Part shown: piece by piece, positions 3,314 to 43,868 of the stretch
Layout: each line of letters opens with the position of its first letter
Position numbering within the stretch: the stretch's first letter is position 1
Virus genome (UHGV): UHGV-0231863
From: a virus
DNA length: 44,709 nt
Strand: one strand, 5' to 3'
Translations under genes and position numbers: made by a program
The notes under the pieces: generated by a model
What the model was told of the DNA's origin: nothing
The model's database searches: none
Seen by the model: only the letters and a program-made list of their open reading frames with translations

Positions 3314-4482
3314 ATATGGCTACAACTCCTTTTAAGGGCGCGAATACTGCGCAATTCTATGTGGCAGAAACTACCCCTGGCGTAACACCGACTAACCCGG
3401 TCTGGTCGCCATTGCGTAACACAGGTGGCGTTCCTGCCATTACCCGCGACACGCTGACCTCCAACGAACTGGACGGCAGCCGTGAAACTACGTCAATCCG
3501 CACCGGTAACAAGCAGGTTAGCGGAGAATACGCTATTGAGCTTAGCTCGAAAAGCCAGGACGACTGGCTGGCGGGTGCTTTAGGCTCTACATGGCAATCC
3601 GGTAGTTCTCTGACCGGGCTATCAATTACCGTCACGCCTGCAGGCAAGACCTTTACCCGTGCCGAAGGTAGCTTTATTTCTGACGGCGTTGAAGTGGGCG
3701 ACCTGATTGCGTTTACCGACTTAACCGGTGACAACGCAAAACCGTTTATCGTAACTGCAGTAGAGGCGCTGGTAGTGACCGGGGCGGGTATCCAGCATAC
3801 CCTGACCACAGAGACAGTAACTACCGCCGCTAAGACAGGGGATAAACTGGAAACGGGAAGCCGGTGCAAGACGTTCTCTATTCTCACCTGGTACAAAGGC
3901 CAGTGCGGCGGGACTGACGCGTACACACTAACCAAAGGCGTGGAAGTTTCTGGTTTTACCATCGAACAGGCTGTTAACGCTATGGTAACTGGCAGCTTCC
4001 CGTTCATCGGTCGCAGTCAGGAGATTCTCACCACGCGGCCGTCTGGTTCTGATTTCTCCTCTGTTACGTTTGGTGACGAGCCATTCTCCTCGGTCGATGT
4101 TTCTGTGTTCGACGGTTCTACGCCGTTGCGTTGCGACAGCCTGACCATCACCAACGACAACAGCGCGTCCGCACAGTTCGAACTCGGCAACACTAACGTA
4201 GCGTTTGTGGAGCGTAGCCGAGCAGCTAACACCTTCTCCATCTCCGGTAAGCTGTACGACATGGCGATGATTCAGAAGTTTATCAACGAGCAGCAGGTGG
4301 AGATTAACTCTATTCTGGCTGGGGTAAACGGGGCTATGTCTTTCAGTTTGAAACGTGCAGAACTTACGGCGGTTACACCTGAGATTGGAGGACCTGAGTC
4401 AATCACTCAGTCTATTGAAGGTCAGGCTACTGGCAACCAGTACCAGTCGTCTATTGTTATTCAGCGTATCACATACGCATAA
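3310..4482 (+). CDS. major tail protein (putative)
   Basis: 390-aa Thr/Ser/Gly-rich beta-type protein, last gene of neck block, followed by a strong terminator. Confidence 0.5.
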   Translation: MNMATTPFKGANTAQFYVAETTPGVTPTNPVWSPLRNTGGVPAITRDTLTSNELDGSRETTSIRTGNKQVSGEYAIELSSKSQDDWLAGALGSTWQSGSSLTGLSITVTPAGKTFTRAEGSFISDGVEVGDLIAFTDLTGDNAKPFIVTAVEALVVTGAGIQHTLTTETVTTAAKTGDKLETGSRCKTFSILTWYKGQCGGTDAYTLTKGVEVSGFTIEQAVNAMVTGSFPFIGRSQEILTTRPSGSDFSSVTFGDEPFSSVDVSVFDGSTPLRCDSLTITNDNSASAQFELGNTNVAFVERSRAANTFSISGKLYDMAMIQKFINEQQVEINSILAGVNGAMSFSLKRAELTAVTPEIGGPESITQSIEGQATGNQYQSSIVIQRITYA

Positions 4483-4486
4483 AACT

Positions 4487-4510
4487 AAGGCCCCGTTTGG
4501 GGCCTTTTTC
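4487..4510. terminator. bidirectional intrinsic terminator
   Basis: AAGGCCCC-gttt-GGGGCCTT hairpin flanked by A-run and T-run at a strand switch. Confidence 0.7.
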
Positions 4511-6921: not shown

Positions 6922-6936
6922 TGTTGGTGTAAGTGA

Positions 6937-6965
6937 ATAGTACCCTATTATATTGGGGTGTGCAA
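6937..6965 (-). promoter_or_regulatory. promoter TTGCAC-17-TACTAT with AATAG-N4-CTATT operator (6936-6949)
   Basis: Minus strand CTTGCACACcccaatataatagggTACTATTCAC upstream of Imm-like gene; near-identical to cassettes at 28984 and 30284. Confidence 0.55.
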
Positions 6966-7522: not shown

Positions 7523-7855
7523 GTGGATAAGCATAAAATCAGAGAGTTTGATTCTATAGCCGACGGACACGAACAGGCGCTTATCGCGATGGGTGTAATC
7601 GATAAGAAAAAACGTGCAGCGCGACGGGGTGGGCCAGAATGCCCGCCCCTTTTTATATCCACCTTCGAGACGTACTGCGACATTAAGTTTACGCGACACG
7701 TGCGCGAGGACGCTGTAGTATTGTTCGCAAGAGAATCCGTTACGTGGCAAGACCTGAAAGCCTATCTCGATGTTACGCAAAAACAGCTTAGCCTGTTCGA
7801 GATAGACATTATCATGGGCTTAGAAGCAATCTTTGAAGGTAGAAATCATGGCTGA
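7523..7855 (+). CDS. tail assembly chaperone extension (GT-like, -1 frame)
   Basis: ORF in the -1 frame relative to 7074..7490, open from ~7466; ends overlapping the tape measure start. Confidence 0.4.
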   Translation: MDKHKIREFDSIADGHEQALIAMGVIDKKKRAARRGGPECPPLFISTFETYCDIKFTRHVREDAVVLFARESVTWQDLKAYLDVTQKQLSLFEIDIIMGLEAIFEGRNHG

Positions 7856-17012: not shown

Positions 17013-17036
17013 AAGGCCCCTTTCGGGGCCTTTTCT
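17013..17036. terminator. bidirectional intrinsic terminator
   Basis: AAGGCCCC-tttc-GGGGCCTT + TTTCT between convergent tailspike and leftward operon. Confidence 0.7.
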
Positions 17037-19696: not shown

Positions 19697-19981
19697 CTAA
19701 CTATAATAGTTCGCTATTAGGTCGTCAACCTGTTTAAACGAACCAACGACAAAAACATTCGCACCACGTTTACGCATACGCTCGTGCTCACGTAACTGGT
19801 GTGGGTCTGGCTTCGTGTTTTCGTCTTTCTTAACCTCGACGAACAAGACGATGCCGACGGGTAGAATTACCAGCAGGTCTGGGGCGCCGGAACGCCCCTC
19901 GTAGGAGAGTTTGCGAACGAGGCCGCCAAGGGCCTCTAATCGGTCTTTTGCGTATTTCTGTACGCGGCCCTCTTTAGTCAT
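19697..19981 (-). CDS. VRR-NUC domain nuclease
   Basis: GAPDLLVI...VEVK...Q motif pattern of the PD-(D/E)XK VRR-NUC family; start taken at internal Met of the track ORF. Confidence 0.7.
   Translation of the reverse strand: MTKEGRVQKYAKDRLEALGGLVRKLSYEGRSGAPDLLVILPVGIVLFVEVKKDENTKPDPHQLREHERMRKRGANVFVVGSFKQVDDLIANYYS
19700..19728 (-). promoter_or_regulatory. promoter TTGACG-17-TATAGT with operator AATAGttcgCTATT (19705-19718)
   Basis: Read on minus strand; overlaps 3' end of VRR-NUC gene, upstream of 19475..19666. Confidence 0.5.
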
Positions 19982-23253: not shown

Positions 23254-23282
23254 ACTATAATAGCTAGCTATTCAGGTGTCAA
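23254..23282 (-). promoter_or_regulatory. promoter TTGACA-17-TATAGT with perfect 14-bp palindrome AATAGCTAGCTATT (23259-23272)
   Basis: Minus strand, intergenic between nuclease and SSB-like genes. Confidence 0.6.
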
Positions 23283-25401: not shown

Positions 25402-25431
25402 AACTATAATAGCGAACTATTCACGTTGTCA
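25402..25431 (-). promoter_or_regulatory. promoter TTGACA-18-TATAGT with operator AATAGcgaaCTATT (25407-25420)
   Basis: Minus strand, divergent from XRE regulator gene; second degenerate operator AATATggtaCTATT at 25452-25465. Confidence 0.6.
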
Positions 25432-25496
25432 ATGGGCTTTTCTAAAATAATTAATATGGTACTATTCACATATCAACTGACTAAGGAGTAATTGGC

Positions 25497-25712
25497 ATGC
25501 AACCATCTGAACTAGGTATCCGTGTAGAGCAACGCCGTAAAGAACTCGGTATCTCCCAGCGCCATCTGGCTGTCCTGGCCGGTGTTTCCCAAGGCGCGAT
25601 TAACCAGCTGGCACTTGGGGTAACTCAGGACGTCCGCCCAGCGACGCTGTTTAAACTGGCGGAAGTGCTGCAAGTAGACGCCAAGTGGCTGGCGTTGGGT
25701 GAAGGGGCTTAA
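25497..25712 (+). CDS. XRE-family HTH transcriptional regulator (Cro/CI-like)
   Basis: HTH LGISQRHLAVLAGVSQGAINQLALG; divergently placed in the leftward operon next to operator palindromes. Confidence 0.8.
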   Translation: MQPSELGIRVEQRRKELGISQRHLAVLAGVSQGAINQLALGVTQDVRPATLFKLAEVLQVDAKWLALGEGA

Positions 25713-25728
25713 CGCCCCTTTATTTTTA
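25702..25728. terminator. terminator hairpin after XRE gene / end of primase gene
   Basis: AAGGGG-cttaacg-CCCCTT then TATTTTT. Confidence 0.5.
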
Positions 25729-25729
25729 C

Positions 25730-27991
25730 CTATTCCAAATCCTCCTCTGTCACTGTCAGCATTTCATTCGGTTCGTATATTGTCTTAGGAATTTTGTTGT
25801 CGTTTATACCCCACGGCAACCTGTATTGCTTAGGGATGGGCCTGTTGTTGTTATCCAGCCCAGAGACGATAACCCCCGCCTCGTGCATCTCTTCCAGTTT
25901 CTTTCGAAGGTCGTTATTAGCGTTAATCGGTACGCCGTAACTATCTTCTTTCGCCGCTTTGACGATAGCTGACATAGAGAACCCTCGCTTGTCGTCGCCT
26001 TGCTCCTGCAATTTACCTAATGCGTAAATAACCGTAGCCTCTTTGGAATCCAGTTTCTCGAACTGGCCTACCTTTTCTTTAACGGCTTCCTTCTGTTCGT
26101 CAGTCATACCTTCTACTTTCTTCACAAAGACAGAGAAGGCGTTGAAGTTGACAAAGACATCAATATGCGGATTTCCCGCGTCAAAATCGCGCACATCATC
26201 ACTGCTATACCCTTCCGGAAGCCCCATGAAGTTGTGAGTTGGTTCTTTCTTTTCCGGCGGCTCCGCTATCTGAATCTTCTGTATTACGAATCCTCTGGCT
26301 TTCTGCCGTTCTCCATTTCGGTTCTTTATGTGATACAGGTTTATCTCTAAGTTATTGTCGTTGTCTGGTTTATGCAGGAACATCCCGTTATCGATGGAGT
26401 TGTGAAAATCACTTCCACCCTTCGGCATCATGCCGTTTTCAGACGGCACAGTTTCGTCGATGTTTTTAGTCGGGTGCACCATAGCGCCTACCGCAGCGTT
26501 AAGCGTCGACGCTATTTCGTTAAGCGCCTGCGCCGCTTCTTTCATCGACCTGTTGTCGTTCTCGTCGAAGCCAGGTATGCAAGTTTGTAGGGTATCAAAC
26601 GTAACCTTTACAATTTTCTCTTCACCGGCGACACGGCGCATCATTCTCACCGCCTGGCGGCGCCATGCTTCATCAAGTAAATTACACCCATCCGCAACAC
26701 AATCGATAATGTGCAAGCGGTCCAGGCTATCGCCGAGGGCAATCTGTAGAGATTTTTTATGTCGCTCGAACGACTGTGCGCCTTCACCGGCGAAGATAAA
26801 TGCGTGACCTTCTGCGACCTCAGCACCACCGAACGCATATCTTTTTTCGGCGGCGATAGCAGCGTCAATCGCCATACTAAATGTTGACTTACCAGTGTGG
26901 GACTTTGCGCAAATGTAGAACGATTCGTTGGTCTGCATAAGGCCGTCTACTACGGGGTAAGCAGGTTCTTTTTCTACTTCCGGCTCGTCTTCGAGGTCTT
27001 CAAGCGTACAAGTTACAGGCTCCTCGTTCTCTGTGCGGTGCAGTTCTTCAATCTCTTCGTCCGGTAAGTCAGGCAAAGCCGCACGAATGCTGTTAATACT
27101 GATAGGTTGCTTGTCTATGTTAAGCTCGTCGGGCAGGCCGCACATACGCAAGGCCAAATGTTGCCGACGGTTAAGCTCGGTACAAGCGCCGTTGTTTGTG
27201 TGCTGGCACACGAAGCGCACCTCTTTACCGTCAAGCATGATGCTGGTGGAGCCTTTGCCTGTATGCAGATGTTCGTTCGGACACGGTACTTCGTACCCAC
27301 GACCTGACGGCAGCGCATCAAGACCCAACTCCGCTTCGCAAAAATACGCTATGTCGGCATTCAGCCCACGCTCATCGGCGGCAAGTGTCTTAGCTTCACG
27401 TTTACGCAGACCCATCTCTTCGGCTTTCTTGATGTACCGCTCAGCACGGATAACACGCCCTTCTGTGACCGTTATCTTCGACTCTTTATGGGGAAGGTAG
27501 ATAAGACGGTTGCCGTCTTCCGTGCAGTGGTCGCGCAATGCTTCATCTATTTCTAACTCGGCACAAATAGCACGTTGCACCATCCACGCATCGTTAGAGT
27601 TAAACGGCGTGCGAGCCGGAACCAGAACGCGGAAGGCGTAATCCCCGTTTTTGCACGCGTGCCGGTGTGACGCCGTTGTATGCAGAATGTTGAAGAACGG
27701 CGCATTCTTAAATTTGCGTGTCAGGTTGCGGTACTGAGTACGGTTGAGATGGTCAAAGTCGAACTTAACCACACTGTCTTCCAGAATCGCGTTCTTACGG
27801 CGACCACCAACAGGTGCGATAGCTTTCTGTTTAATCTTGGCGGCGTCGTACTCTTCCTTAGTCCACGACGGGTCCACGGATAAACGCTTCGATGTATCAC
27901 AGACATACTCTACGAACTGCTCCAGCGGCATTTCACGCGCTACAGGGTTTTTATCGAATGTGTTACGCAGCGTTGCAAAAACAATATTCAT
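25730..27991 (-). CDS. primase-helicase / replication initiation protein
   Basis: 753 aa; central P-loop CAKSHTGKST (RecA/DnaB-like ATPase); N-terminal region with His/Cys clusters consistent with a primase domain. Confidence 0.65.
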   Translation of the reverse strand: MNIVFATLRNTFDKNPVAREMPLEQFVEYVCDTSKRLSVDPSWTKEEYDAAKIKQKAIAPVGGRRKNAILEDSVVKFDFDHLNRTQYRNLTRKFKNAPFFNILHTTASHRHACKNGDYAFRVLVPARTPFNSNDAWMVQRAICAELEIDEALRDHCTEDGNRLIYLPHKESKITVTEGRVIRAERYIKKAEEMGLRKREAKTLAADERGLNADIAYFCEAELGLDALPSGRGYEVPCPNEHLHTGKGSTSIMLDGKEVRFVCQHTNNGACTELNRRQHLALRMCGLPDELNIDKQPISINSIRAALPDLPDEEIEELHRTENEEPVTCTLEDLEDEPEVEKEPAYPVVDGLMQTNESFYICAKSHTGKSTFSMAIDAAIAAEKRYAFGGAEVAEGHAFIFAGEGAQSFERHKKSLQIALGDSLDRLHIIDCVADGCNLLDEAWRRQAVRMMRRVAGEEKIVKVTFDTLQTCIPGFDENDNRSMKEAAQALNEIASTLNAAVGAMVHPTKNIDETVPSENGMMPKGGSDFHNSIDNGMFLHKPDNDNNLEINLYHIKNRNGERQKARGFVIQKIQIAEPPEKKEPTHNFMGLPEGYSSDDVRDFDAGNPHIDVFVNFNAFSVFVKKVEGMTDEQKEAVKEKVGQFEKLDSKEATVIYALGKLQEQGDDKRGFSMSAIVKAAKEDSYGVPINANNDLRKKLEEMHEAGVIVSGLDNNNRPIPKQYRLPWGINDNKIPKTIYEPNEMLTVTEEDLE

Positions 27992-28116
27992 TTCTTTTTC
28001 TCCGCACGTTCTAAGGCTTCCTGCATACGGCGCATTGCGCGGTTCATCTTTACCGGTGCGAAGAAATCAGCGCCGTGTTTCTGGCGGCGTAGCTGTGGAA
28101 CTATTAACTTCGTCAT
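27988..28116 (-). CDS. small basic protein (approximate coordinates)
   Basis: ~42-codon ORF with AGGA SD whose stop overlaps the primase start. Confidence 0.3.
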   Translation of the reverse strand: MTKLIVPQLRRQKHGADFFAPVKMNRAMRRMQEALERAEKKK

Positions 28117-28166
28117 TGTATAATCCTTGTGCTTACTTTGATGATTTATGCTTCGGCCCCGACGTT

Positions 28167-28400
28167 CTAGCGTTGGGGTTTCTTTTGTCTACGCACCGCA
28201 TTAACCCACTCTCCTTCGCTACGGTAAAAACTGCAATCAAGGATATCCTCTATAGAAAATTTAACTATTTTAGTGGGTCCACAAAAGTTATAAGGGAAAA
28301 GTTCTACATAACACCCATCGTCGGTTATATTTGACGCAATCTTGAAATAATATTTAATGCTGCCGTCTTCGCGGAAGCTACAACCCATACGCCCAATCAT
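28167..28400 (-). CDS. hypothetical protein
   Basis: 77-aa ORF between AlpA-like gene and primase. Confidence 0.4.
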   Translation of the reverse strand: MIGRMGCSFREDGSIKYYFKIASNITDDGCYVELFPYNFCGPTKIVKFSIEDILDCSFYRSEGEWVNAVRRQKKPQR

Positions 28401-28579
28401 TTCACGTTCTCCTTAATCCACTCTTCAACTTTATTACGGTCGAATGTTCCCGGTAAACGGCGACCCATAACCTTAATACAGCAATCCGGGAATTTACCAC
28501 TGCGCAACCAGTTATTAATTGTCTGACGCGTCACCCCGATACGCTCGGCTACTTCATTCTGTGTCATGTAATGTTGCAT
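28397..28579 (-). CDS. AlpA/Xis-like winged-helix DNA-binding protein
   Basis: MTQNEVAERIGVTRQTINNWLRSGKFP; AGGAG SD before internal ATG at 28579; first gene of the leftward operon. Confidence 0.6.
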   Translation of the reverse strand: MQHYMTQNEVAERIGVTRQTINNWLRSGKFPDCCIKVMGRRLPGTFDRNKVEEWIKENVK

Positions 28580-28610
28580 TTTTAAATCTCCTGTTTGTTT
28601 GGTGAAGCCA

Positions 28611-28639
28611 AGTATAGGATAGCGGGAATGTAAAAGCAA
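28611..28639 (-). promoter_or_regulatory. promoter TTGCTT-17-TATACT for leftward operon (AlpA-like gene first)
   Basis: Read on minus strand; ~30 nt upstream of the AGGAG SD. Confidence 0.45.
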
Positions 28640-28686
28640 CCAAAACACCACACAAAGTTACTAAGATACAAAAGATGCTACCGGTA

Positions 28687-28715
28687 TTGACTTTTACTTA
28701 AAAATATGGTAAGCT
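28687..28715 (+). promoter_or_regulatory. promoter TTGACT-17-TAAGCT (copy 1 of duplicated cassette) with palindrome AAGCTCAGcCTGAGCTT
   Basis: Plus strand; palindrome 28711-28727 overlaps -10; followed by identical 38-mer shared with 41272-41309. Confidence 0.45.
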
Positions 28716-28718
28716 CAG

Positions 28719-28756
28719 CCTGAGCTTGTGAAGTATGAACAAGCGACCGCGGCGCG
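28719..28756 (+). repeat. 38-nt block identical to 41272-41309 (copy 1)
   Basis: CCTGAGCTTGTGAAGTATGAACAAGCGACCGCGGCGCG; contains hairpin GCTTGT-gaagtatga-ACAAGC and ATG of micro-ORF MNKRPRR. Confidence 0.85.
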
Positions 28757-28901
28757 CGGCGGGCGAAACGAGCACGTGTAGCGTGTGGAGTGAGGCTCGC
28801 TGGCGCGTTTGGGAGGCCCAAAGTCTATTGTAATTCCCGCCTAAATATCTAAGTTACTGATTTGCCGTTGGTTATATCCGCAAGCTCACTCACTCACTCT
28901 T

Positions 28902-28938
28902 GGTGCCTTCGGCACCACGTTCGTTTCGTTTCGCTTGC
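28902..28938 (+). terminator. UUCG-tetraloop hairpin plus U-rich tract
   Basis: GGTGCC-ttcg-GGCACC followed by ACGTTCGTTTCGTTTCGCTT; preceded by (CTCA)x3. Confidence 0.45.
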
Positions 28939-28983
28939 TACCCCATTAAACGAAAGAATCACAACGGCAACGTAACTATTCTC

Positions 28984-29012
28984 TTGCACACACCAACATA
29001 ATAGGATACTAT
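28984..29012 (+). promoter_or_regulatory. promoter TTGCAC-17-TACTAT with operator AATAGgataCTATT (29000-29013)
   Basis: CTTGCACACaccaacataataggaTACTATTCAC then conserved AAACGAGA leader and GGAG SD. Confidence 0.55.
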
Positions 29013-29046
29013 TCACTTATCGAAACGAGACAGAGGAGTGAGGGCT

Positions 29047-29244
29047 ATGTTTAAACGTGGTCAGTTGGTTAAATACTCCGACGATAAACACGGCATAATT
29101 GAATTAAAATCTGCTTTATTTCCAGGAAAGTACGTAGTTACCGTGCAAAATGTGAGAGGAGTAAATTCACAAATATACGTAGCGGAGGAGAACTTAAAAC
29201 TCATCGGCAACAATTTTAAATTTAAAGGGGGGAGGGTGAAGTGA
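29047..29244 (+). CDS. hypothetical early protein
   Basis: ATG with GGAG SD downstream of conserved promoter cassette; stop overlaps next start. Confidence 0.45.
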   Translation: MFKRGQLVKYSDDKHGIIELKSALFPGKYVVTVQNVRGVNSQIYVAEENLKLIGNNFKFKGGRVK

Positions 29245-29444
29245 TGGAAGAATTATTTGAAGAACTGAAACATCATGATTTCGAGGAAATATATTTCGTA
29301 GCTGAACGCTACGAGGTGCATCTGGCGGACGGTATAACGGTTATTACATCTACCAGCGAGCGAATGTTAAATAGCTTACGAGCAATACGAACGGCATCGA
29401 ATCATGATGCTTGTGCCGACGACGCTGAGGGAGGTTGCCGTTAA
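29244..29444 (+). CDS. hypothetical early protein
   Basis: Acidic 66-aa ORF, TGATG / TAATG coupling to neighbours. Confidence 0.45.
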   Translation: MEELFEELKHHDFEEIYFVAERYEVHLADGITVITSTSERMLNSLRAIRTASNHDACADDAEGGCR

Positions 29445-29623
29445 TGCGAATCCGTATAACTGACCGCAGGCTTATCCGTATAACTGACCGCAGGCTTATA
29501 GATTTCGGTATCTCGGTAGGTGATGTTTTTCCGGCGTTCAGAATCAACCATTATGGTTTTATGATTGAGTACAAAGGGTCGTTATTGTTCGTGTATCGGG
29601 ATGAATGTGAGGTTCTGGTATGA
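29444..29623 (+). CDS. hypothetical early protein containing tandem IRITDRRL repeat
   Basis: 59-aa ORF; includes the perfect 24-bp tandem duplication. Confidence 0.4.
   Translation: MRIRITDRRLIRITDRRLIDFGISVGDVFPAFRINHYGFMIEYKGSLLFVYRDECEVLV
29450..29497 (+). repeat. perfect 24-bp tandem duplication (2 copies)
   Basis: ATCCGTATAACTGACCGCAGGCTT repeated head-to-tail; encodes IRITDRRL twice in frame. Confidence 0.9.
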
Positions 29624-29775
29624 GAGAAGCATTTGAACGGTGGGCTGTGGTCGAGGGTCTGCCGGTTAACAAGGGTTCAAAGAAAGAGTACCTGAACGTT
29701 AAGACGCGTCTCGCGTGGCGGGCGTGGAAAGCTGGTGTGCAATCCTTGATTGAAAGAGGTGTGAGGTATGGGTGA
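29620..29775 (+). CDS. hypothetical early protein
   Basis: 51-codon ORF read by eye, ATGA-type overlaps at both ends. Confidence 0.35.
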   Translation: MREAFERWAVVEGLPVNKGSKKEYLNVKTRLAWRAWKAGVQSLIERGVRYG

Positions 29776-29968
29776 GTGGATTAAGTGTAGTGAGATGCTG
29801 CCGGGTAATGGGTATACGGATAAAGAGTTCCTGGTGTATGAAACGTTAAATAACGCAGTTCAGCACGATTATTACATAGTTCCTGATGACGGGAGAAAGC
29901 CTTTCTGGAATCACTACGATAATTACGTGACGCACTGGATGCCGTTACCCGAGCCGCCAGAAGTGTGA
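29768..29968 (+). CDS. DUF551-like small phage protein
   Basis: C-terminal THWMPLPEPP motif. Confidence 0.5.
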   Translation: MGEWIKCSEMLPGNGYTDKEFLVYETLNNAVQHDYYIVPDDGRKPFWNHYDNYVTHWMPLPEPPEV

Positions 29969-30035
29969 TGTTCAATAGTTTGGGATTTTACTGAGTGACT
30001 TACGCTGCTACACAGCAGCGTACAACTTTAACTTA

Positions 30036-30059
30036 GTGTCGTCAAAAGGCGACACTTTC
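30036..30059 (+). terminator. terminator-like hairpin
   Basis: GTGTCG-tcaaaagg-CGACAC + TTT; preceded by 9-bp-arm inverted repeat TACGCTGCT-acac-AGCAGCGTA (~30001-30022). Confidence 0.4.
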
Positions 30060-30102
30060 ATCAAACGCAACAATCGAAGCGACTATTGCAGGAGATGCAA
30101 CA

Positions 30103-30283: not shown

Positions 30284-30312
30284 TTGCACACTAAGATAGA
30301 ATAGGCTACTAT
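30284..30312 (+). promoter_or_regulatory. promoter TTGCAC-17-TACTAT with operator AATAGgctaCTATT (30300-30313)
   Basis: CTTGCACACtaagatagaataggcTACTATTCAT then AAACGAGAGGAGAG leader. Confidence 0.55.
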
Positions 30313-30342
30313 TCATTTACACAAACGAGAGGAGAGACAGAG

Positions 30343-31018: not shown

Positions 31019-31221
31019 TGACCAGCATCTTATTTATCTGGGTACTGTCGGCGGGCAAGATGCAACTAGCGGCATCGGAAACGTTTTATTCGACGGAGGC
31101 GTGCCAGTCCGCGGCACGCGCCGCAGAGAACGCACACTTCCTGTTTCAGGGCGACAAGCCCAACGATTCAGAGGTACGCGCTATCTGCTCACCTAAGCGA
31201 CTTGGCAATCAGGAGAAATAA
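31018..31221 (+). CDS. small protein with signal-peptide-like N-terminus
   Basis: Hydrophobic N-terminus MTSILFIWVLSAGKMQLAAS; TGATG coupling. Confidence 0.35.
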   Translation: MTSILFIWVLSAGKMQLAASETFYSTEACQSAARAAENAHFLFQGDKPNDSEVRAICSPKRLGNQEK

Positions 31222-31514
31222 TGTCGTTAGCAACTGACATCCTGAAACGAAGCGGCCTTGCGCCGCTGTCGCCGAGAGCTAAAACACGGGTATACAAGCG
31301 CCACCGTAACGCTCTGTACCCTGAGATTCAGGCCAGACGTAAAGCTATCCGCGCCTGTGGATTCCAGAACGGGAAGGCCGTGAATCTCGGTGAGTTCAAA
31401 ACACAGGAACGTGCAGCTATAGCTAATCGGTTATTTAATTACTGGAAATCGCTTGGATACGATGATATTCCAACGAAACCCCAGAGACGACAATACATCT
31501 GGAGACATAAATAA
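31221..31514 (+). CDS. hypothetical basic protein
   Basis: 97-aa Arg/Lys-rich ORF. Confidence 0.45.
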   Translation: MSLATDILKRSGLAPLSPRAKTRVYKRHRNALYPEIQARRKAIRACGFQNGKAVNLGEFKTQERAAIANRLFNYWKSLGYDDIPTKPQRRQYIWRHK

Positions 31515-37931: not shown

Positions 37932-37955
37932 AAGGCCCCGCTAGGGGCCTTAGCT
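37932..37955. terminator. bidirectional terminator-like hairpin
   Basis: AAGGCCCC-gcta-GGGGCCTT between convergent portal and KilA-N genes; same stem as 4487 and 17013. Confidence 0.55.
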
Positions 37956-38751: not shown

Positions 38752-40689
38752 ATGAGCTTACTGACATCTCTAATCAGCCACCAGATTTGGCTGCAACGCG
38801 CCGCATCCGGTGAAGTAAAAGACCTCGCACCATTCATTCAGGAAATGCGGGACGAAATCAAACGGCAGGTGCTGCTATTCGGCGACGACGGCCGCAGCAC
38901 CGCACGGCTGAATAAACTGTTACGTGACCTTGAAGAAGCTCTGACGGGGCTCACAGGTGACTGGCAAACAAAGCTGACAGAAGACCTTAAGGAACTGGCG
39001 GCGTATGAGGCTGAGTGGAACGTAAAGACACTGGCCACCAACGTTAACGCGGAATTTGTTACGCCTACCGCCGAGCAAGTGTGGGCCGCTGCCGAGTTTC
39101 AGCCGCTATCGTTAAGTGACAAGCCTGTTGATTTCACTAAGCTAATGTCAGGCTGGGGTGAAACCGAAGTCGCGCGCCTTGTGACCGGCGTTAAGATGGG
39201 CTTTGTACAAGGCCAGACAACACGGCAGATTGTTAAGAATGTCGTAGGCGCTGGTGGGCTGGCGGACATCTCTGAGCGTAACGCAGCTACGGTAATACGC
39301 ACCGCGCTGTCTCATGTATCCAACGAAGCCCGTAACGAGACGTACCGCCAGAACGATGACATCATCGAGAAATACGAGTGGGTGTCGACGCTGGACAGCC
39401 GTACCAGTACAACGTGTTTCACGGCTGAAACAGAATTAGCGCCCATCGCGGGGATGGACGCGGTAATGCGCGGACTCTATTCAGGAAAAATCCTTACCAT
39501 CGAACTTTCCAACGGCGAGAAGTTCAGTGGCACCCCGAAACACCCTGTACTCACGCAATACGGATGGACTCCGCTTGATGAACTCGACCCAACTAAGCAT
39601 GTCTTGTATACCACTGTTGACAAAGTGACTGTGCTCGAAACAGTGAAGAACATAAACATGCCAGCCAGAGCGGATTATATTTTTAATACGCTCGCTGATT
39701 TCCCCATCAGGAAAATGGTAAGCACGAGTCCCGCGGCAACAGATTTCTATGGCGATGGAGTGGGACTCAATGGCAAAATCGACATTGTACGGGCCGATTG
39801 CAAACTGCGGAACTACGTCCATGCCAGCGGAATTAAACAATTCAAAAGCGAGGGTTTCAGTCTTATTCATAGCGCCGCTTTGCTGTCGGACGATAGCTCT
39901 GGCGATTTTCTCCTCCGGGGTGAATGTCCTGTGAGTGTGCCCGCGCTTAGCGAGGCCAAGTGTTTTGACCATAGAATAGAAAACTGTTTTGCTTACTTGG
40001 GTCCTTCTTATGCACTCAATAGGCGGGACGCCGGACTCGAACAATTCTATAGCCCTTTTTTGATTCAAAATGGTGTCGTTAGAAACCCAACCACGGGGTC
40101 GATCATGCATGAGTCCGAGCTTCTTGAGAAATGTTGTTACCGTGGTGGTAGTGACGCCGTAATTCTTGGCTATGATGCTGGCGGGAGTGCCATCTCGGTA
40201 CAAAGAACAAATATCATCCGCATAAGCGTCGAGTTTAGAACGTGCCATGTTTATACCCTCTCTAGTAGTCAAGGATATTATACAGCAGGTAGTGCGATAG
40301 TCAAGAATTGCAGGGCCAGAGACGGGATGACGTGGGAAATCGGTAAAGGGCCGATGCCTCCGGCCCATTTTGGGTGCAGAAGCACCACTGCGCCTGTAAT
40401 CAGTTCGGAGTTCGACTTCCTCGATAAAGGCGCAAAACGCGCGGCTAAGGGTGCGGACGGCGGTATGCAGGTAAGTGCGGACACCACCTATTACGAGTTC
40501 CTGAAACAACAACCGGCATGGTTTCAGGACCAGGCGCTTGGTCCTGTTCGCGGTAAGATTTTCCGCAACAGCGGTATATCACCAGAGGAGTTTCGCGTAA
40601 TATCTGTAGATGGTTTCGGGAATCCGCTCACGCTTAAGCAGATGGCGGAACTCGATAAACGTGTTGCTGATTATCTGAAAGGGGAATAA
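38752..40689 (+). CDS. head morphogenesis protein (Mu F / SPP1 gp7-like) interrupted by an intein
   Basis: Extein junction reconstitutes DSRTSTT|CRARDGMTW...PPAHFGCRSTT, matching the D-x-R-x-R...H...G...CRC-type Mu F motif; 298 in-frame codons are inserted. Confidence 0.8.
   Translation: MSLLTSLISHQIWLQRAASGEVKDLAPFIQEMRDEIKRQVLLFGDDGRSTARLNKLLRDLEEALTGLTGDWQTKLTEDLKELAAYEAEWNVKTLATNVNAEFVTPTAEQVWAAAEFQPLSLSDKPVDFTKLMSGWGETEVARLVTGVKMGFVQGQTTRQIVKNVVGAGGLADISERNAATVIRTALSHVSNEARNETYRQNDDIIEKYEWVSTLDSRTSTTCFTAETELAPIAGMDAVMRGLYSGKILTIELSNGEKFSGTPKHPVLTQYGWTPLDELDPTKHVLYTTVDKVTVLETVKNINMPARADYIFNTLADFPIRKMVSTSPAATDFYGDGVGLNGKIDIVRADCKLRNYVHASGIKQFKSEGFSLIHSAALLSDDSSGDFLLRGECPVSVPALSEAKCFDHRIENCFAYLGPSYALNRRDAGLEQFYSPFLIQNGVVRNPTTGSIMHESELLEKCCYRGGSDAVILGYDAGGSAISVQRTNIIRISVEFRTCHVYTLSSSQGYYTAGSAIVKNCRARDGMTWEIGKGPMPPAHFGCRSTTAPVISSEFDFLDKGAKRAAKGADGGMQVSADTTYYEFLKQQPAWFQDQALGPVRGKIFRNSGISPEEFRVISVDGFGNPLTLKQMAELDKRVADYLKGE
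39481..40248 (-). CDS. antisense-nested gene: tandem HTH + DUF559/Vsr-like endonuclease-fold protein
   Basis: Minus-strand ORF from ATG 40248 (antisense to His499 codon) with GAGGG SD and TTGACT-16-TATAAT promoter; IIAKNYGVTTTTVTTFLKKLGL and IECIRRTQVSKTVFYSMVKTLGL HTH-like; QFAIGPYNVDFAIESHSIAIEI...GWHVYVL matches DUF559 pattern. Confidence 0.55.
   Translation of the reverse strand: MARSKLDAYADDICSLYRDGTPASIIAKNYGVTTTTVTTFLKKLGLMHDRPRGWVSNDTILNQKRAIELFESGVPPIECIRRTQVSKTVFYSMVKTLGLAKRGHTHRTFTPEEKIARAIVRQQSGAMNKTETLAFELFNSAGMDVVPQFAIGPYNVDFAIESHSIAIEICCRGTRAYHFPDGEISERIKNIIRSGWHVYVLHCFEHSHFVNSGIQDMLSWVEFIKRSPSVLREYRVFRGATELLAVGKFDGKDFS
40277..40304 (-). promoter_or_regulatory. sigma70-type promoter TTGACT-16-TATAAT for the antisense intein-nested gene
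   Basis: Minus strand reads TTGACTatcgcactacctgctgTATAAT, then GAGGG SD and ATG; lies within the intein C-terminal coding region. Confidence 0.55.
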
Positions 40690-41150: not shown

Positions 41151-41154
41151 ACTG

Positions 41155-41176
41155 AAGCCCCGAAAGGGGCTTTTTA
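41155..41176 (+). terminator. intrinsic terminator
   Basis: AAGCCCC-gaaa-GGGGCTT + TTTAG. Confidence 0.6.
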
Positions 41177-41225: not shown

Positions 41226-41268
41226 AACTATTCGAATAGTTGACTTTTCACCAAAAATGTGCTAAGCT
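41226..41268 (+). promoter_or_regulatory. promoter TTGACT-17-TAAGCT (copy 2 of duplicated cassette) preceded by 16-bp palindrome AACTATTCGAATAGTT
   Basis: Palindrome 41226-41241 abuts -35 at 41240-41245; -10 at 41263-41268. Confidence 0.45.
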
Positions 41269-41271
41269 CCA

Positions 41272-41309
41272 CCTGAGCTTGTGAAGTATGAACAAGCGAC
41301 CGCGGCGCG
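41272..41309 (+). repeat. 38-nt block identical to 28719-28756 (copy 2)
   Basis: Same 38-mer downstream of homologous promoter; flanks diverge immediately afterwards. Confidence 0.85.
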
Positions 41310-41493
41310 GGCAGGTAACGGAGCGGGACGTAAGTCCTGAGTGTAGTTACGCTGACGCGTTCGGAAGGGCCATACCCTATTGCTTGTGTAAAAAGTAACT
41401 GGTTTACTGAGATTACGCCGTTTCTATGTTTAAATGATAAGGACTAGCGCCCCGCTTTAAGGCGGGGCTTTACTTATCGAGAAAGGGGGAAAC

Positions 41494-41880
41494 ATGAATC
41501 TTAAAGCAACTGTCGTAGCGGGGGCATGTTTCATCATCCTGGCTTACGCACACGGCATCTACCAGTATCGCAGCGGCTGGAACGAAGGCCGGGCGAATCT
41601 CGTTTCGCAGCAACAGCAGAAAGCACAGGCTGAGTTAGCGAAGAAAACACAACGGCAGCAGCAGGATGAATCAAAGGCCGCAGCCGCTGACAACGAAGGC
41701 AAGACGAAATCAGAGGTAATCACCCGTGAAGTCGTTAAGTACATTAAAACGCCTGGTCGCAGCGTGTGCACTTTTGACCCTGAGCGCGTGCAGCTCAAGT
41801 CCCGCGCCGTCGCAAACGCCAATTCCATCCCCGGATACGACGATGATGCAGCCGCCGTGCAAACTGGCGCCGCCAAGTAG
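41494..41880 (+). CDS. Rz: i-spanin (Rz-like)
   Basis: N-terminal TM helix then Gln/Ala-rich coiled coil; overlaps an out-of-frame lipoprotein ORF. Confidence 0.6.
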   Translation: MNLKATVVAGACFIILAYAHGIYQYRSGWNEGRANLVSQQQQKAQAELAKKTQRQQQDESKAAAADNEGKTKSEVITREVVKYIKTPGRSVCTFDPERVQLKSRAVANANSIPGYDDDAAAVQTGAAK

Positions 41881-43825: not shown

Positions 43826-43842
43826 GGTTAAGATATAATCGA

Positions 43843-43868
43843 GAGGGACTTCGGTCCCTCTTTTCATT
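43843..43868 (+). terminator. hairpin/terminator after major capsid gene
   Basis: GAGGGAC-ttcg-GTCCCTC + TTTTCATTT. Confidence 0.6.

What the first reader, a model, noticed from the sequence alone, without database searches (positions are those of the whole stretch)
28687..28938. Duplicated promoter-leader cassette, copy 1: identical 38-mer, conserved micro-ORF start and hairpin-terminated short transcript
A promoter TTGACT-17-TAAGCT, overlapped by the palindrome AAGCTCAG-c-CTGAGCTT, is followed by a 38-nt block that is 100% identical to one at 41272-41309. The block contains a 6-bp-stem hairpin and the start of a micro-ORF beginning MNKRPRR (32 codons here, 36 in copy 2), after which the two copies diverge completely. 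This copy then runs about 200 nt with a (CTCA)x3 microsatellite to a UUCG-tetraloop hairpin and U-rich tract, with no SD for the micro-ORF. It could be a small RNA, a leader peptide or an operator-controlled decoy transcript.
Basis: seen in the sequence. Interest (0 to 1): 0.65.

Follow-up and report, generated by a model that had tools for sequence, protein, structure and literature searches.

The report
Duplicated structured phage leader RNA
Two copies of a strong promoter followed by a folded, non-coding RNA leader of about 110 nt head the two long rightward operons of this Kagunavirus-type phage; the fold is kept by compensatory mutations in about 450 related phage genomes, matches no described RNA family, and probably acts on transcription of the late genes, though that role is untested.

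Summary
The repeat is real: 38 nt are identical at 28719-28756 and 41272-41309. But the two copies do not "diverge completely". Homology runs from the -35 hexamer to about +110, and the differences are largely compensatory changes in one RNA fold: a 5' hairpin P1, a long imperfect hairpin P2a-e, and a conserved GG(A/G)AGG...CUAUUG tail. On 42 distinct homologues 94% of cells are paired (31-45% when partners are slid) and 17 pairs change on both sides. The micro-ORF is spurious: it is 9 to over 40 codons long, frameshifted, and its ATG is absent from whole clades. The copy-2 element, upstream of the spanin, scaffold, capsid and tail genes, is present in essentially all Guernseyvirinae. Copy 1 is a secondary transplant of the promoter-plus-leader module, found in a minority of Kagunaviruses. 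There is no Rfam match, no similarity to HK022 put by model search, no boxA, no N or Q protein among the ORFs screened or in Snoke's annotation, and no host homologue. My best reading (about 0.4) is a cis-acting leader that modifies the transcribing host RNA polymerase, put-like in logic, so that it reads through hairpins and terminators in the long late operons. Rivals are a factor-binding (nut-like) site, a 5' mRNA stabiliser, and a trans-acting small RNA. The motif is new; its function is inferred.

The parts
28687..28715 (+). Copy 1 promoter: -35 TTGACT (28687-28692), 17-nt spacer with TG at 28707-28708 (extended -10), -10 TAAGCT (28710-28715)
   Evidence: Read and matched. In the homologous promoters of all four leader types, T1, A2 and T6 of the -10 and the TGn extension are kept while positions 3-5 vary (TAAGCT, TACGCT, TAACCT, TATAAT).
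28711..28727 (.). Palindrome AAGCTCAG-c-CTGAGCTT spanning the -10 hexamer to about +6
   Evidence: The pattern AAGCTC-N5-GAGCTT is exact only at the two cassettes. The 8+8 arms are specific to this leader variant.
28724..28744 (+). Copy 1 helix P1: GCUUGU / 9-nt loop GAAGUAUGA / ACAAGC, starting about +3 of the inferred transcript (start about 28722)
   Evidence: Relatives keep the pairing through U-A to U-G changes, an 8-bp/tetraloop version (L048, L009, L033) and an entirely different sequence in the Jersey type.
28747..28813 (+). Copy 1 helix P2: long imperfect hairpin (P2a CCG/UGG, bulged C, P2b, P2c/d, asymmetric purine-rich internal loop, P2e CACGUG-UAG-CGUGUG)
   Evidence: z-score -2.13 for the 111-nt core. 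Covariation. The distal helices differ from copy 2 by compensatory changes.
28811..28830 (+). Copy 1 conserved 3' tail GGGAGG...CUAUUG, with a weak helix P3 (28814-28826)
   Evidence: GG(A/G)AGG and CUAUUG are near-invariant in the K and J types, and GGAAGGG recurs in the Cornellvirus-type C1 leaders. P3 is only 88% paired.
28735..28833 (+). Micro-ORF MNKRPRR... (32 codons): judged not to be a gene
   Evidence: the ATG is absent in many homologues, and the length and frame are not conserved.
28885..28899 (+). (CTCA)n microsatellite in the variable part of the copy-1 leader
   Evidence: A relative (L005) has a longer run of the same repeat.
28901..28936 (+). GC hairpin GGUGCC-UUCG-GGCACC followed by an interrupted U-tract; a weak terminator-like site
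28980..29014 (+). Second, operator-type promoter between the leader hairpin and the first gene (TTGCAC-17-TACTAT, with the palindrome ATAATAGGATACTATTC at 28998-29014)
   Evidence: Motif search (7 hits against 0.30 expected). The same segment is present in fBC-Eco01, which lacks the cassette. The promoter assignment is an inference.
41240..41268 (+). Copy 2 promoter: -35 TTGACT (41240-41245), TG at 41260-41261, -10 TAAGCT (41263-41268)
41277..41297 (+). Copy 2 helix P1 (identical to copy 1)
41300..41364 (+). Copy 2 helix P2 (P2a CCG/CGG, P2b GGCGCG/CGCGUU, P2c CAG/CUG, P2d GUAAC/GUUAC, P2e CGGGAC-GUAA-GUCCUG)
   Evidence: z-score -2.52; the MFE structure is the centroid. 140.9 bits in the model scan.
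41363..41382 (+). Copy 2 conserved tail GGAAGGG...CUAUUG, with the weak helix P3
41449..41478 (+). Leader hairpin GCCCCGC-UUUAAG-GCGGGGC followed by UUUACUUAUC (terminator-like), 15 nt before the spanin ribosome-binding site; the spanin ATG is at 41494
41154..41171 (.). Terminator-type hairpin that appears to insulate the copy-2 promoter from the upstream head genes
   Evidence: Repeat family D1, whose scan flagged it only on the - strand. The + strand T-tail is weaker.

Best explanation
The finding is one of two copies of a portable module. The module is a strong sigma-70 promoter with an extended -10, followed by a structured non-coding leader RNA of about 110 nt (P1 hairpin, long P2 hairpin, conserved purine-rich tail) that folds from the first transcribed bases. 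The ancestral copy, universal in the subfamily, heads the late operon (spanins, scaffold, capsid, connectors, tail). In this phage a second copy has been transplanted to the head of the other long rightward operon (small ORFs, holins, endolysin, Nin-like genes, terminase, portal). Shown: the duplication, promoter conservation, the RNA fold with covariation, its specificity for the sense strand, non-coding status, position, portability, and the absence of any known family match. Inferred: the nascent RNA acts in cis on the host RNA polymerase that made it, as HK022 put RNA does. [quoted passage not shown] The conserved junction (P2a/b plus the GGAAGGG tail) would be the contact surface, and the variable distal P2 a scaffold.
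For: Structure: on 42 distinct sequences 94.1% of cells are paired, against 31-45% with partners slid. 17 pairs change on both sides (shuffles 11.9; 0 of 500 reach it), as do 134 cells (shuffles 34; 0 of 500). Every variant folds alone into the same topology. Core z-scores are -2.1 to -2.8. Conserved G-U pairs (columns 42/114, 43/113 and 121/129) make the fold specific to the sense strand. Position and logic: the fold starts about +3 from a near-consensus extended -10 promoter, as HK022 putL does (first paired base +3; PMC9378689). A GC hairpin or terminator follows each copy before the first gene. The late unit contains strong + strand terminators after the capsid gene (43841-43862), after the tail tube gene (4487-4506) and inside the tail chaperone region (7626-7649). 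Phage Snoke's curated record also annotates terminators inside both rightward units. Portability: the segment from -35 to about +115 was transplanted as a unit. At the same site fBC-Eco01 has a different strong promoter, a different structured leader and a canonical terminator. So promoter, structured leader and hairpin form an interchangeable design that does not depend on the downstream hairpin's sequence. That argues against a switch based on alternative pairing. The conserved core is the junction: natural variant SLMP1 lacks all of distal P2 but keeps P1, P2a/b and the tail. No candidate protein partner was found: 20 small ORFs screened against PHROGs and 4 against Pfam gave no N, Q or other antiterminator, none is annotated in Snoke, and neither leader has a boxA. 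Distribution: 181 records carry the K type and 268 the J type, out of about 460 Guernseyvirinae genomes, always at the head of the late operon.
Against: No experiment or transcript data bear on this element, and I found no paper describing it. There is no homology to put: the model finds nothing in the HK022 immunity region (best 8.7 bits). The architecture also differs, with a 21-nt P1 and a 65-nt P2 against two stems totalling about 70 nt. The 'terminator' after the leader is canonical only in the K-type copy 2. Its U-tract is poor in copy 1, in the Jersey type (UUAGCGU) and in the Cornellvirus types (UGUUACG). So leader-proximal termination may not be the conserved target. Partial termination after a capsid gene is normal phage design and needs no antiterminator, and the tail genes seem to have their own operator-type promoter (6935-6951). 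In the Jersey and C1 types the P1 inverted repeat begins only 4-5 nt after the -10 hexamer, so with a canonical start site P1 would shrink to 3-4 bp. A constitutive promoter joined to a protein-independent antiterminator would give no temporal control of late genes.
Confidence: 0.4

Rival explanations
1. Factor-dependent (nut-like) regulatory site. The folded leader is the binding site for a phage-encoded or host protein that loads onto RNA polymerase, or blocks or permits termination. This would give temporal control: the late operon is read through only after an early or middle product accumulates.
For: Near-invariant single-stranded and junction sequences (ACCGCGG..., UUCGGAAGGG, CUAUUG) sit beside freely covarying distal helices, which is typical of a sequence-specific binding site. 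The promoter looks constitutive, so delaying late genes would need a step after initiation. Two copies at the heads of two operons recall lambda nutL and nutR. Most of the screened small ORFs have no known function.
Against: No N, Q or other antiterminator family matches the 20 ORFs screened, and none is annotated in Snoke. The one protein with an arginine-rich stretch (31221-31514) matches neither N peptides nor N families and looks like a weak AP2-type DNA-binding domain. Neither leader has a boxA. The apical loops are not conserved (GUAA, GUUA, UAG, CUCG, AUUA, CACA), so there is no boxB-like loop.
Confidence: 0.22
2. 5' mRNA stabiliser or expression enhancer. A stable structure at the very 5' end protects the long late transcripts from 5'-end-dependent RNase E/RppH decay, and a compact untranslated leader prevents Rho loading. 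RNA polymerase itself is not affected.
For: P1 begins within about 3 nt of the inferred 5' end in the K type, which is the geometry known for 5' stabilising hairpins such as the ompA leader (my own knowledge). P1 varies freely in sequence between clades while staying a hairpin. The module is portable and does not depend on downstream sequence. Distal P2 is dispensable in SLMP1.
Against: A stabiliser does not need an invariant 9-nt P1 loop within the K type, near-invariant P2a/b sequence, or a conserved unpaired GGAAGGG...CUAUUG tail across genera. It also does not explain co-conservation with the promoter.
Confidence: 0.2
3. Independent small RNA. Transcription mostly stops at the leader hairpin, releasing a structured RNA of about 190-200 nt that acts in trans on a host or phage target (base-pairing, protein sponge or anti-defence RNA). 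This would be analogous in layout to lambda 6S RNA from pR'-tR'.
For: The copy-2 hairpin with UUUACUUAU is a credible intrinsic terminator about 195 nt from the start. The promoter is strong. A downstream motif GAUUnnGCCGU is shared by all leaders.
Against: The U-tract is not conserved in copy 1 or in the J and C types. The region between the core and the hairpin varies in sequence and length and contains a microsatellite. The element always sits directly upstream of an operon in the same orientation. There is no complementarity-scale similarity to any of 5,426 E. coli genomes.
Confidence: 0.1
4. Leader peptide or micro-ORF. Translation of MNKRPRR... controls downstream expression or yields a functional arginine-rich peptide.
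For: An ATG-initiated ORF exists in both copies and encodes a basic N-terminus. Some GenBank records annotate it as a hypothetical protein (Snoke CPT_Snoke_007).
Against: The ATG is absent from all Jersey-type leaders (268 records) and from L048, L009, L033 and L051. ORF length is 9, 17, 19, 22, 32, 34, 36 or over 40 codons, with single-nucleotide indels. There is no Shine-Dalgarno sequence, and the AUG lies in the P1 loop 13 nt from the 5' end. The substitution pattern preserves base pairs, not codons.
Confidence: 0.02
5. The function lies mainly in the DNA. The inverted repeats around the -10 hexamer and the start site are an operator for a phage repressor or activator, and the RNA fold is secondary.
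For: The 17-bp palindrome overlaps the -10 to +6 region. In the Jersey and C1 types the 'P1' inverted repeat overlaps the predicted start site. The phage encodes two HTH proteins.
Against: Covariation including G-U pairs extends about 90 nt downstream of the start site and is strand-specific. No palindrome involving the -10 hexamer is seen in the C1 type. The phage's obvious operator is a different palindrome (AATAG-N5-CTATT, 7 copies) that is absent from the cassette promoters.
Confidence: 0.06

Closest known systems
HK022 put RNAs (putL, putR): protein-independent processive antiterminator RNAs
   Same: Both are cis-acting structured RNAs encoded directly downstream of strong sigma-70 promoters at the heads of long phage operons that contain terminators. 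Both occur as two related copies per genome. Folding starts at about +3 of the transcript, and the architecture is two stem-loops with bulges. The conserved residues cluster at the junction of the stems. No dedicated protein is evident (put facts from PMC9378689).
   Different: No sequence or structure homology was detected. Sizes differ (21 + 65 nt plus a tail, against about 70 nt). The host phage is a virulent siphovirus, not a lambdoid temperate phage. The element heads the late or lysis operons rather than the early ones. Function is untested here.
Lambda N / nut sites (boxA + boxB)
   Same: Duplicated RNA sites lie downstream of two promoters, and short conserved single-stranded motifs sit next to a hairpin.
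   Different: There is no boxA, no conserved boxB-type loop, and no N-like protein.
Lambda late-gene unit pR' - 6S RNA - tR' controlled by Q
   Same: The gene order is the same: constitutive-looking promoter, untranslated leader of about 200 nt, terminator-like hairpin, lysis genes, then head and tail genes.
   Different: No Q-like protein was found among the ORFs screened or in Snoke's annotation. Q acts through DNA sites and a sigma-dependent pause, whereas here the conserved feature is an RNA fold with covariation. A -10-like repeat after the promoter exists in the Jersey type (TACGCT-acc-TACGCT), but it lacks the key A2 in the K type (TGAGCT), so it is not a family feature.
5'-terminal stabilising stem-loops (e.g. 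the ompA 5' UTR)
   Same: A hairpin lies within a few nucleotides of the 5' end of a long mRNA.
   Different: This element adds a large second helix with conserved internal loops and a conserved unpaired tail. It is also co-inherited with its promoter.

Membership tests
HK022 put RNA | Sequence and secondary-structure similarity to putL or putR | tested here: not met
   Model R1, run with filters off over the HK022 immunity region (25500-30100), gave a best score of 8.7 bits at E = 0.23, which is noise. The reverse test, a put model against this window, was not possible because no put family came up in any Rfam scan.
HK022 put RNA | Encoded just downstream of a sigma-70 promoter and folding from the first few transcribed bases into two stem-loops | tested here: inconclusive
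   The geometry fits in the K type, where P1 runs from about +3 and is followed by P2. But the start site is inferred, stem sizes differ from put, and P1 may be truncated in the Jersey and C1 types.
HK022 put RNA | Binds the beta' zinc-binding domain and confers read-through of intrinsic and Rho-dependent terminators without protein factors | not testable with these tools
   This needs in vitro transcription, reporter assays and rpoC mutants.
Lambda-type N/nut antitermination | boxA element (CGCUCUUA or UGCUCUUUAACAA-like) in the leader | tested here: not met
   There is no match inside 28722-29040 or 41275-41493, and window-wide counts are at chance level.
Lambda-type N/nut antitermination | boxB hairpin with a conserved GNRA-like loop | tested here: not met
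   The apical loops of P2e vary freely (GUAA, GUUA, UAG, CUCG, AUUA, CACA, CUCA). The P1 loop also differs between clades.
Lambda-type N/nut antitermination | Phage-encoded N-like arginine-rich antiterminator protein | tested here: not met
   PHROGs on 20 small ORFs found no antiterminator family. The basic 97-aa protein (31221-31514) has no PDB or Pfam N match, and its best Pfam hint is AP2 at E = 0.31.
Lambda Q / qut late control | Q-family protein plus a sigma-dependent promoter-proximal pause element | tested here: inconclusive
   No Q family appears among the screened ORFs or in the curated Snoke annotation. A -10-like repeat is present in the Jersey type only. Not every ORF was screened.
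Riboswitch or classical attenuator | A conserved aptamer known to Rfam, and mutually exclusive terminator and antiterminator pairings | tested here: not met
   Rfam found nothing at gathering thresholds, and only noise up to E = 10 for the two window leaders and up to E = 1 for the J and C leaders. The downstream hairpins differ entirely in sequence between copy 1, copy 2 and the J and C types while the core stays constant, so no conserved alternative pairing is possible (inference).
Leader peptide / small protein gene | Start codon, reading frame and peptide conserved among homologues | tested here: not met
   (ATG missing in whole clades, lengths from 9 to over 40 codons, frameshifts). (single-nucleotide indels).
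Any described RNA family (Rfam 15) | A score at or above a family's gathering threshold | tested here: not met

The most novel reading that the evidence does not exclude
This is a second, evolutionarily independent family of protein-free RNA antiterminators, put-like in mechanism but unrelated in sequence. It would be native to virulent siphoviruses, present in more than 450 sequenced Guernseyvirinae genomes (many of them phage-therapy candidates), and packaged with its promoter as a portable 'terminator-proof transcription' cassette that phages swap between operons.
Probability: 0.3. Interest if true: 0.8.

Novelty: new variant of a known kind. Interest (0 to 1): 0.6.

Why it matters
RNA elements that reprogram RNA polymerase without any protein are known from essentially one small family: HK022 put, for which the 2022 structure paper aligned ten sequences. 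A well-supported, abundant and unrelated structured leader in the same position and operon logic would be a ready test of how general that mechanism is. It comes with natural mutants: a distal-P2 deletion and several sequence types that share one fold. Even if the function is different (factor binding or mRNA stabilisation), this is the main conserved non-coding element controlling the late genes of a phage subfamily widely isolated for therapy and biocontrol of E. coli and Salmonella. No transcription map of these phages turned up in my literature searches. On the practical side, GenBank records annotate spurious 'hypothetical proteins' on both strands of this RNA. The compact promoter-leader cassette could also be useful as a synthetic-biology part.

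Tried and rejected
(1) Rfam at gathering thresholds and permissive E-values, on both copies and on the Jersey and Cornellvirus-type leaders: only noise.

(2) put homology, by running my model over the HK022 immunity region: none.

(3) N-like protein. From memory, an arginine-rich stretch in the 97-aa ORF 31221-31514 looked like the P22 and phi21 N motifs. PDB, Pfam and PHROGs searches gave no N match, and the stretch lies in a weak AP2-like DNA-binding domain. Rejected.

(4) boxA: absent from both leaders.

(5) Micro-ORF: rejected by comparative data. The antisense ORF 28678-28821 (annotated in Snoke as CPT_Snoke_056) is likewise hit by the single-nucleotide indels between variants.

(6) Pseudoknot between the P1 loop (AGUAUG) and the tail (CAUACU): complementary in the commonest K variant but not in copy 1, L048 or the Jersey type. 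Rejected.

(7) Host mimicry or a host target: no similarity in 5,426 E. coli genomes.

(8) Occurrence outside the subfamily. In bacterial genomes the core pattern gave 15 hits. Only two tiny contaminant-like contigs score with the model, and the rest are chance GC-rich matches. The true metagenome hits with a known contig size lie mostly on phage-sized contigs of 40-45 kb.

(9) A third copy in the window: none.

(10) A 14-mer scan of viral contigs (GGAAGGGTCGAGGT) was too unspecific and returned chance hits. It was wasted.

(11) Literature searches for transcription work on MB78, Jersey, SETP3 or K1 phages, or for put-like RNAs elsewhere: nothing relevant.

(12) The CCCCGC...GCGGGG leader hairpin recalled a type I-E CRISPR repeat stem. 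No CRISPR-DR family came up, and the Jersey and C types have different stems. Treated as coincidence.
Full report
WHAT THE WINDOW IS. The 44.7-kb window is a complete or nearly complete genome of a Kagunavirus-type siphovirus (subfamily Guernseyvirinae). The regions around both copies match more than 180 Escherichia and Salmonella phage records, and the major capsid protein is 100% identical to that of phage K1G. No phage RNA polymerase is annotated in the curated record of the relative Snoke, so I assume these phages use the host RNA polymerase.

CHECKING THE OBSERVATION.
- TTGACT-17-TAAGCT at 28687-28715. I add that a TG at 28707-28708 makes it an extended -10 promoter.
- The palindrome at 28711-28727.
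- An identical 38-mer at 28719-28756 and 41272-41309 (2 matches against 0.00 expected).
- The 6-bp hairpin, the two ORFs starting MNKRPRR, (CTCA)n at 28885-28899, and the UUCG hairpin at 28901-28917.

One statement is wrong, and it matters: the copies do not diverge completely after the 38-mer. They align from the -35 hexamer to about +110. A covariance model built mainly from copy-2-type sequences scores copy 1 at 93 bits and copy 2 at 141 bits, and nothing else in the window exceeds 9.7 bits. There are exactly two copies.

THE LEADER IS A FOLDED RNA.
- I collected homologues from IMG/VR, GenBank phages and metagenomes.
- Folded independently, all 41 distinct leaders adopt one topology. A 5' hairpin P1 is followed by a long imperfect hairpin: P2a, a bulged C, P2b, P2c/d, a purine-rich asymmetric internal loop, and P2e with a small loop. 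A tail GG(A/G)AGGG...CUAUUG follows, with a weak helix P3.
- On the 27-sequence MAFFT alignment 93% of cells are paired, against 30-45% when partners are slid.
- On the 62-hit (42 distinct) model alignment 94.1% are paired, against 31-45% slid. 17 pairs change on both sides (shuffles 11.9; 0 of 500 reach it) and so do 134 cells (shuffles 34; 0 of 500).
- P2e exists in at least nine sequence versions. One pair in P2b takes C-G, U-A and A-U. One pair in P2d takes U-A, A-U and G-C. P1 is GCUUGU/ACAAGC, or an 8-bp tetraloop form, or ACGCU/AGCGU.
- Conserved G-U pairs make the fold specific to the sense strand.
- Core z-scores are -2.1 to -2.8.
- The two copies in this window differ mostly by such compensatory changes in P2c-e.

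THE MICRO-ORF IS NOT A GENE. Across homologues the ATG is absent in all Jersey-type leaders and in L048, L009, L033 and L051. Where it exists, the ORF is 9, 17, 19, 22, 32, 34, 36 or more than 40 codons long because of single-nucleotide indels. The AUG sits in the P1 loop 13 nt from the inferred 5' end, with no Shine-Dalgarno sequence. Some GenBank records nevertheless annotate it, and an antisense ORF, as hypothetical proteins.

DISTRIBUTION AND HISTORY.
- The element at the copy-2 position lies between the Hoc-like head-decoration gene, with its terminator, and the spanin, scaffold and capsid genes. It is essentially universal in the subfamily.
- 181 records carry the Kagunavirus (K) type and 268 the Jersey (J) type, out of about 460 records with a Guernseyvirinae capsid.
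- The J type has the promoter TTGACT-17-TGtTACGCT, different P1, P2c/d and P2e sequences, and an identical UUCGGAAGGG tail.
- Cornellvirus-like phages carry two further, more diverged leader types (C1 and C2). Both have an extended -10 promoter, GC-rich hairpins and recognisable tail motifs (CGGAAGGGUCGAG; GGGGAUAGUCUAUUC). My model does not detect them, so their homology rests on synteny and motifs.
- Copy 1, by contrast, exists only in a minority of Kagunaviruses: 224 places in 181 records, so at most 43 second copies.
- In fBC-Eco01, which lacks copy 1, the same site holds a different strong promoter (TTGAAA-18-TGTATAAT), a different structured leader and a canonical terminator. The sequence shared with this window follows. 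Jersey and SETP3 also have a different leader there.
- So the finding's copy is a transplanted promoter-plus-leader module.
- One natural variant (SLMP1) lacks distal P2 entirely but keeps P1, P2a/b and the tail. This points to the junction as the functional core.
- The element was not found in E. coli genomes. The only model-confirmed hits in bacterial assemblies are two contaminant-like fragments.

GENOMIC CONTEXT.
- Using Snoke's curated map and ORF positions, copy 1 heads the unit of small ORFs, holins, endolysin, Nin-like genes, terminase, portal and head genes. Copy 2 heads the unit of spanins, scaffold, capsid, connectors and tail genes.
- Strong + strand intrinsic terminators lie inside the late unit at 43841-43862, 4487-4506 and 7626-7649.
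- A second promoter class carries an AATAG-N5-CTATT palindrome (7 copies against 0.3 expected). It serves the leftward replication genes and the tail module.
- One copy of that palindrome (28998-29014) lies between the copy-1 leader hairpin and the first gene, so that operon has tandem promoters. The two cassette promoters lack this operator and form their own class.

MECHANISM. What is shown: a conserved promoter, a sense-strand RNA fold beginning at the start of the transcript, a hairpin before the first gene, long downstream operons containing terminators, portability of the module, and independence from the downstream hairpin's sequence.

What I infer: the nascent RNA acts in cis on the RNA polymerase that made it, as HK022 put does. 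HK022 putL likewise sits directly after its promoter, pairs from +3, has two stems, binds the beta' zinc-binding domain and needs no protein (PMC9378689). Consistent with this, I found no N, Q or other antiterminator protein among the screened ORFs. I also found no boxA and no conserved boxB-like loop.

I hold this at about 0.4 for these reasons:
- There is no homology to put.
- The U-tract after the leader hairpin is not conserved outside the K-type copy 2.
- P1 may be truncated in the J and C1 types if transcription starts at the canonical distance.
- A protein-free antiterminator on a constitutive promoter offers no timing control.

Rivals are a factor-binding (nut-like) site (0.22), a 5' stabiliser (0.20), a terminated trans-acting small RNA (0.10), a DNA operator (0.06) and a leader peptide (0.02).

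COMPARISON AND NOVELTY. The element works most like put in position and logic, but it fails the only membership feature I could test, which is similarity. It fails every tested feature of nut sites, riboswitches or attenuators, and leader peptides. No Rfam family matches, and I found no description in the literature. I therefore class it as a new variant of a known kind: structured cis-acting phage leader RNAs. The motif is well supported, but its function is only inferred.

LIMITS. The transcription start and termination sites are inferred from consensus geometry. The model-based alignment leans toward the structure it was built on, although the MAFFT alignment and the single-sequence folds agree with it. 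Homology of the C1 and C2 leaders is judged by eye. Only about 36 small ORFs were screened for arginine-rich stretches, 20 of them against PHROGs and 4 against Pfam.

Noticed in passing
window 6935-6951, 19704-19720, 23257-23273, 25406-25422, 25451-25467, 28998-29014, 30298-30314: A second promoter/operator class: the palindrome AATAG-N5-CTATT occurs 7 times against 0.30 expected. It is embedded in the spacer or -10 region of sigma-70-like promoters (for example GTTGACG-N17-TATAGT on the minus strand at 19.7, 23.3 and 25.4 kb). This is the motif a published genome paper (PMC9825357) called 'phage-RNA-polymerase promoters'. It is more likely the operator of a phage repressor, such as the Cro/CI-like gene at 25497-25712.
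   Followed up: partly
window 4487-4506, 17013-17032, 37932-37951, 41154-41171: A family of four near-identical hairpin terminators, AAGGCCCC-NNNN-GGGGCCTT, sits at the borders between gene modules. At least the first is flagged on both strands.
   Followed up: no
window 7626-7649: A very strong intrinsic-terminator-like hairpin (GGGGUGGGC...GCCCGCCCC followed by UUUUU) lies inside the tail assembly chaperone / frameshift region, just before the tape measure gene. It could be a frameshift stimulator, a real attenuator, or both.
   Followed up: no
window 31221-31514 (+): A 97-aa protein (pI 11.0) just upstream of the holins has a basic stretch, RAKTRVYKRHRNAL, that superficially resembles N-protein arginine-rich motifs. 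By profile search it is at best a weak AP2-type DNA-binding domain (Pfam E = 0.31). It may be a regulator of unknown role.
   Followed up: partly
window 29450-29497 (+), within ORF 29435-29623: A perfect 24-nt tandem duplication gives the repeat RITDRRLI-RITDRRLI at the N-terminus of a 62-aa arginine-rich protein of unknown function.
   Followed up: no
window 41228-41239: A perfect 12-bp palindrome, CTATTCGAATAG, lies immediately upstream of the -35 hexamer of the copy-2 promoter. It occurs once in the window and is absent from copy 1. It may be an activator or UP-like element.
   Followed up: partly
L069 (Salmonella phage SLMP1) 636-694: A natural deletion variant of the leader lacks all of distal P2 (P2c-e) but retains P1, a shortened P2a/b hairpin and the conserved tail. 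It could serve as a ready-made minimal element, unless it is an assembly artefact.
   Followed up: partly
L270 (phage fBC-Eco01) 320-590; L052 (Jersey) 38860-39240: Phages without the copy-1 cassette carry other long structured leaders plus a hairpin or terminator at the same site. The fBC-Eco01 promoter motif TTGACAC-N6-TGTATAAT is nearly the same as the late-operon promoter of the C2-type phages (Shemara, SE1, AH01). Promoter-leader modules therefore seem to be exchanged between operons and between phages.
   Followed up: partly
window 28885-28899; L005 about 4355-4385: The (CTCA)n run in the copy-1 leader varies in copy number between relatives. It behaves as a true microsatellite in a part of the leader that appears unconstrained.
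   Followed up: no
L043 (phage Snoke) 6449-6559 and 37709-37816: The GenBank annotation places 'hypothetical protein' CDSs on the micro-ORF and on the strand antisense to the leader. Both are probably annotation artefacts over a non-coding RNA.
   Followed up: partly
window 28703-28732 (-) and 28980-29014: Possible leftward promoters overlap or face the copy-1 cassette (TTCACA-18-CATATT on the minus strand; TCGATA-17-TATGTT within the operator motif). If active, leftward transcripts toward the HTH gene would be antisense to the copy-1 leader.
   Followed up: no
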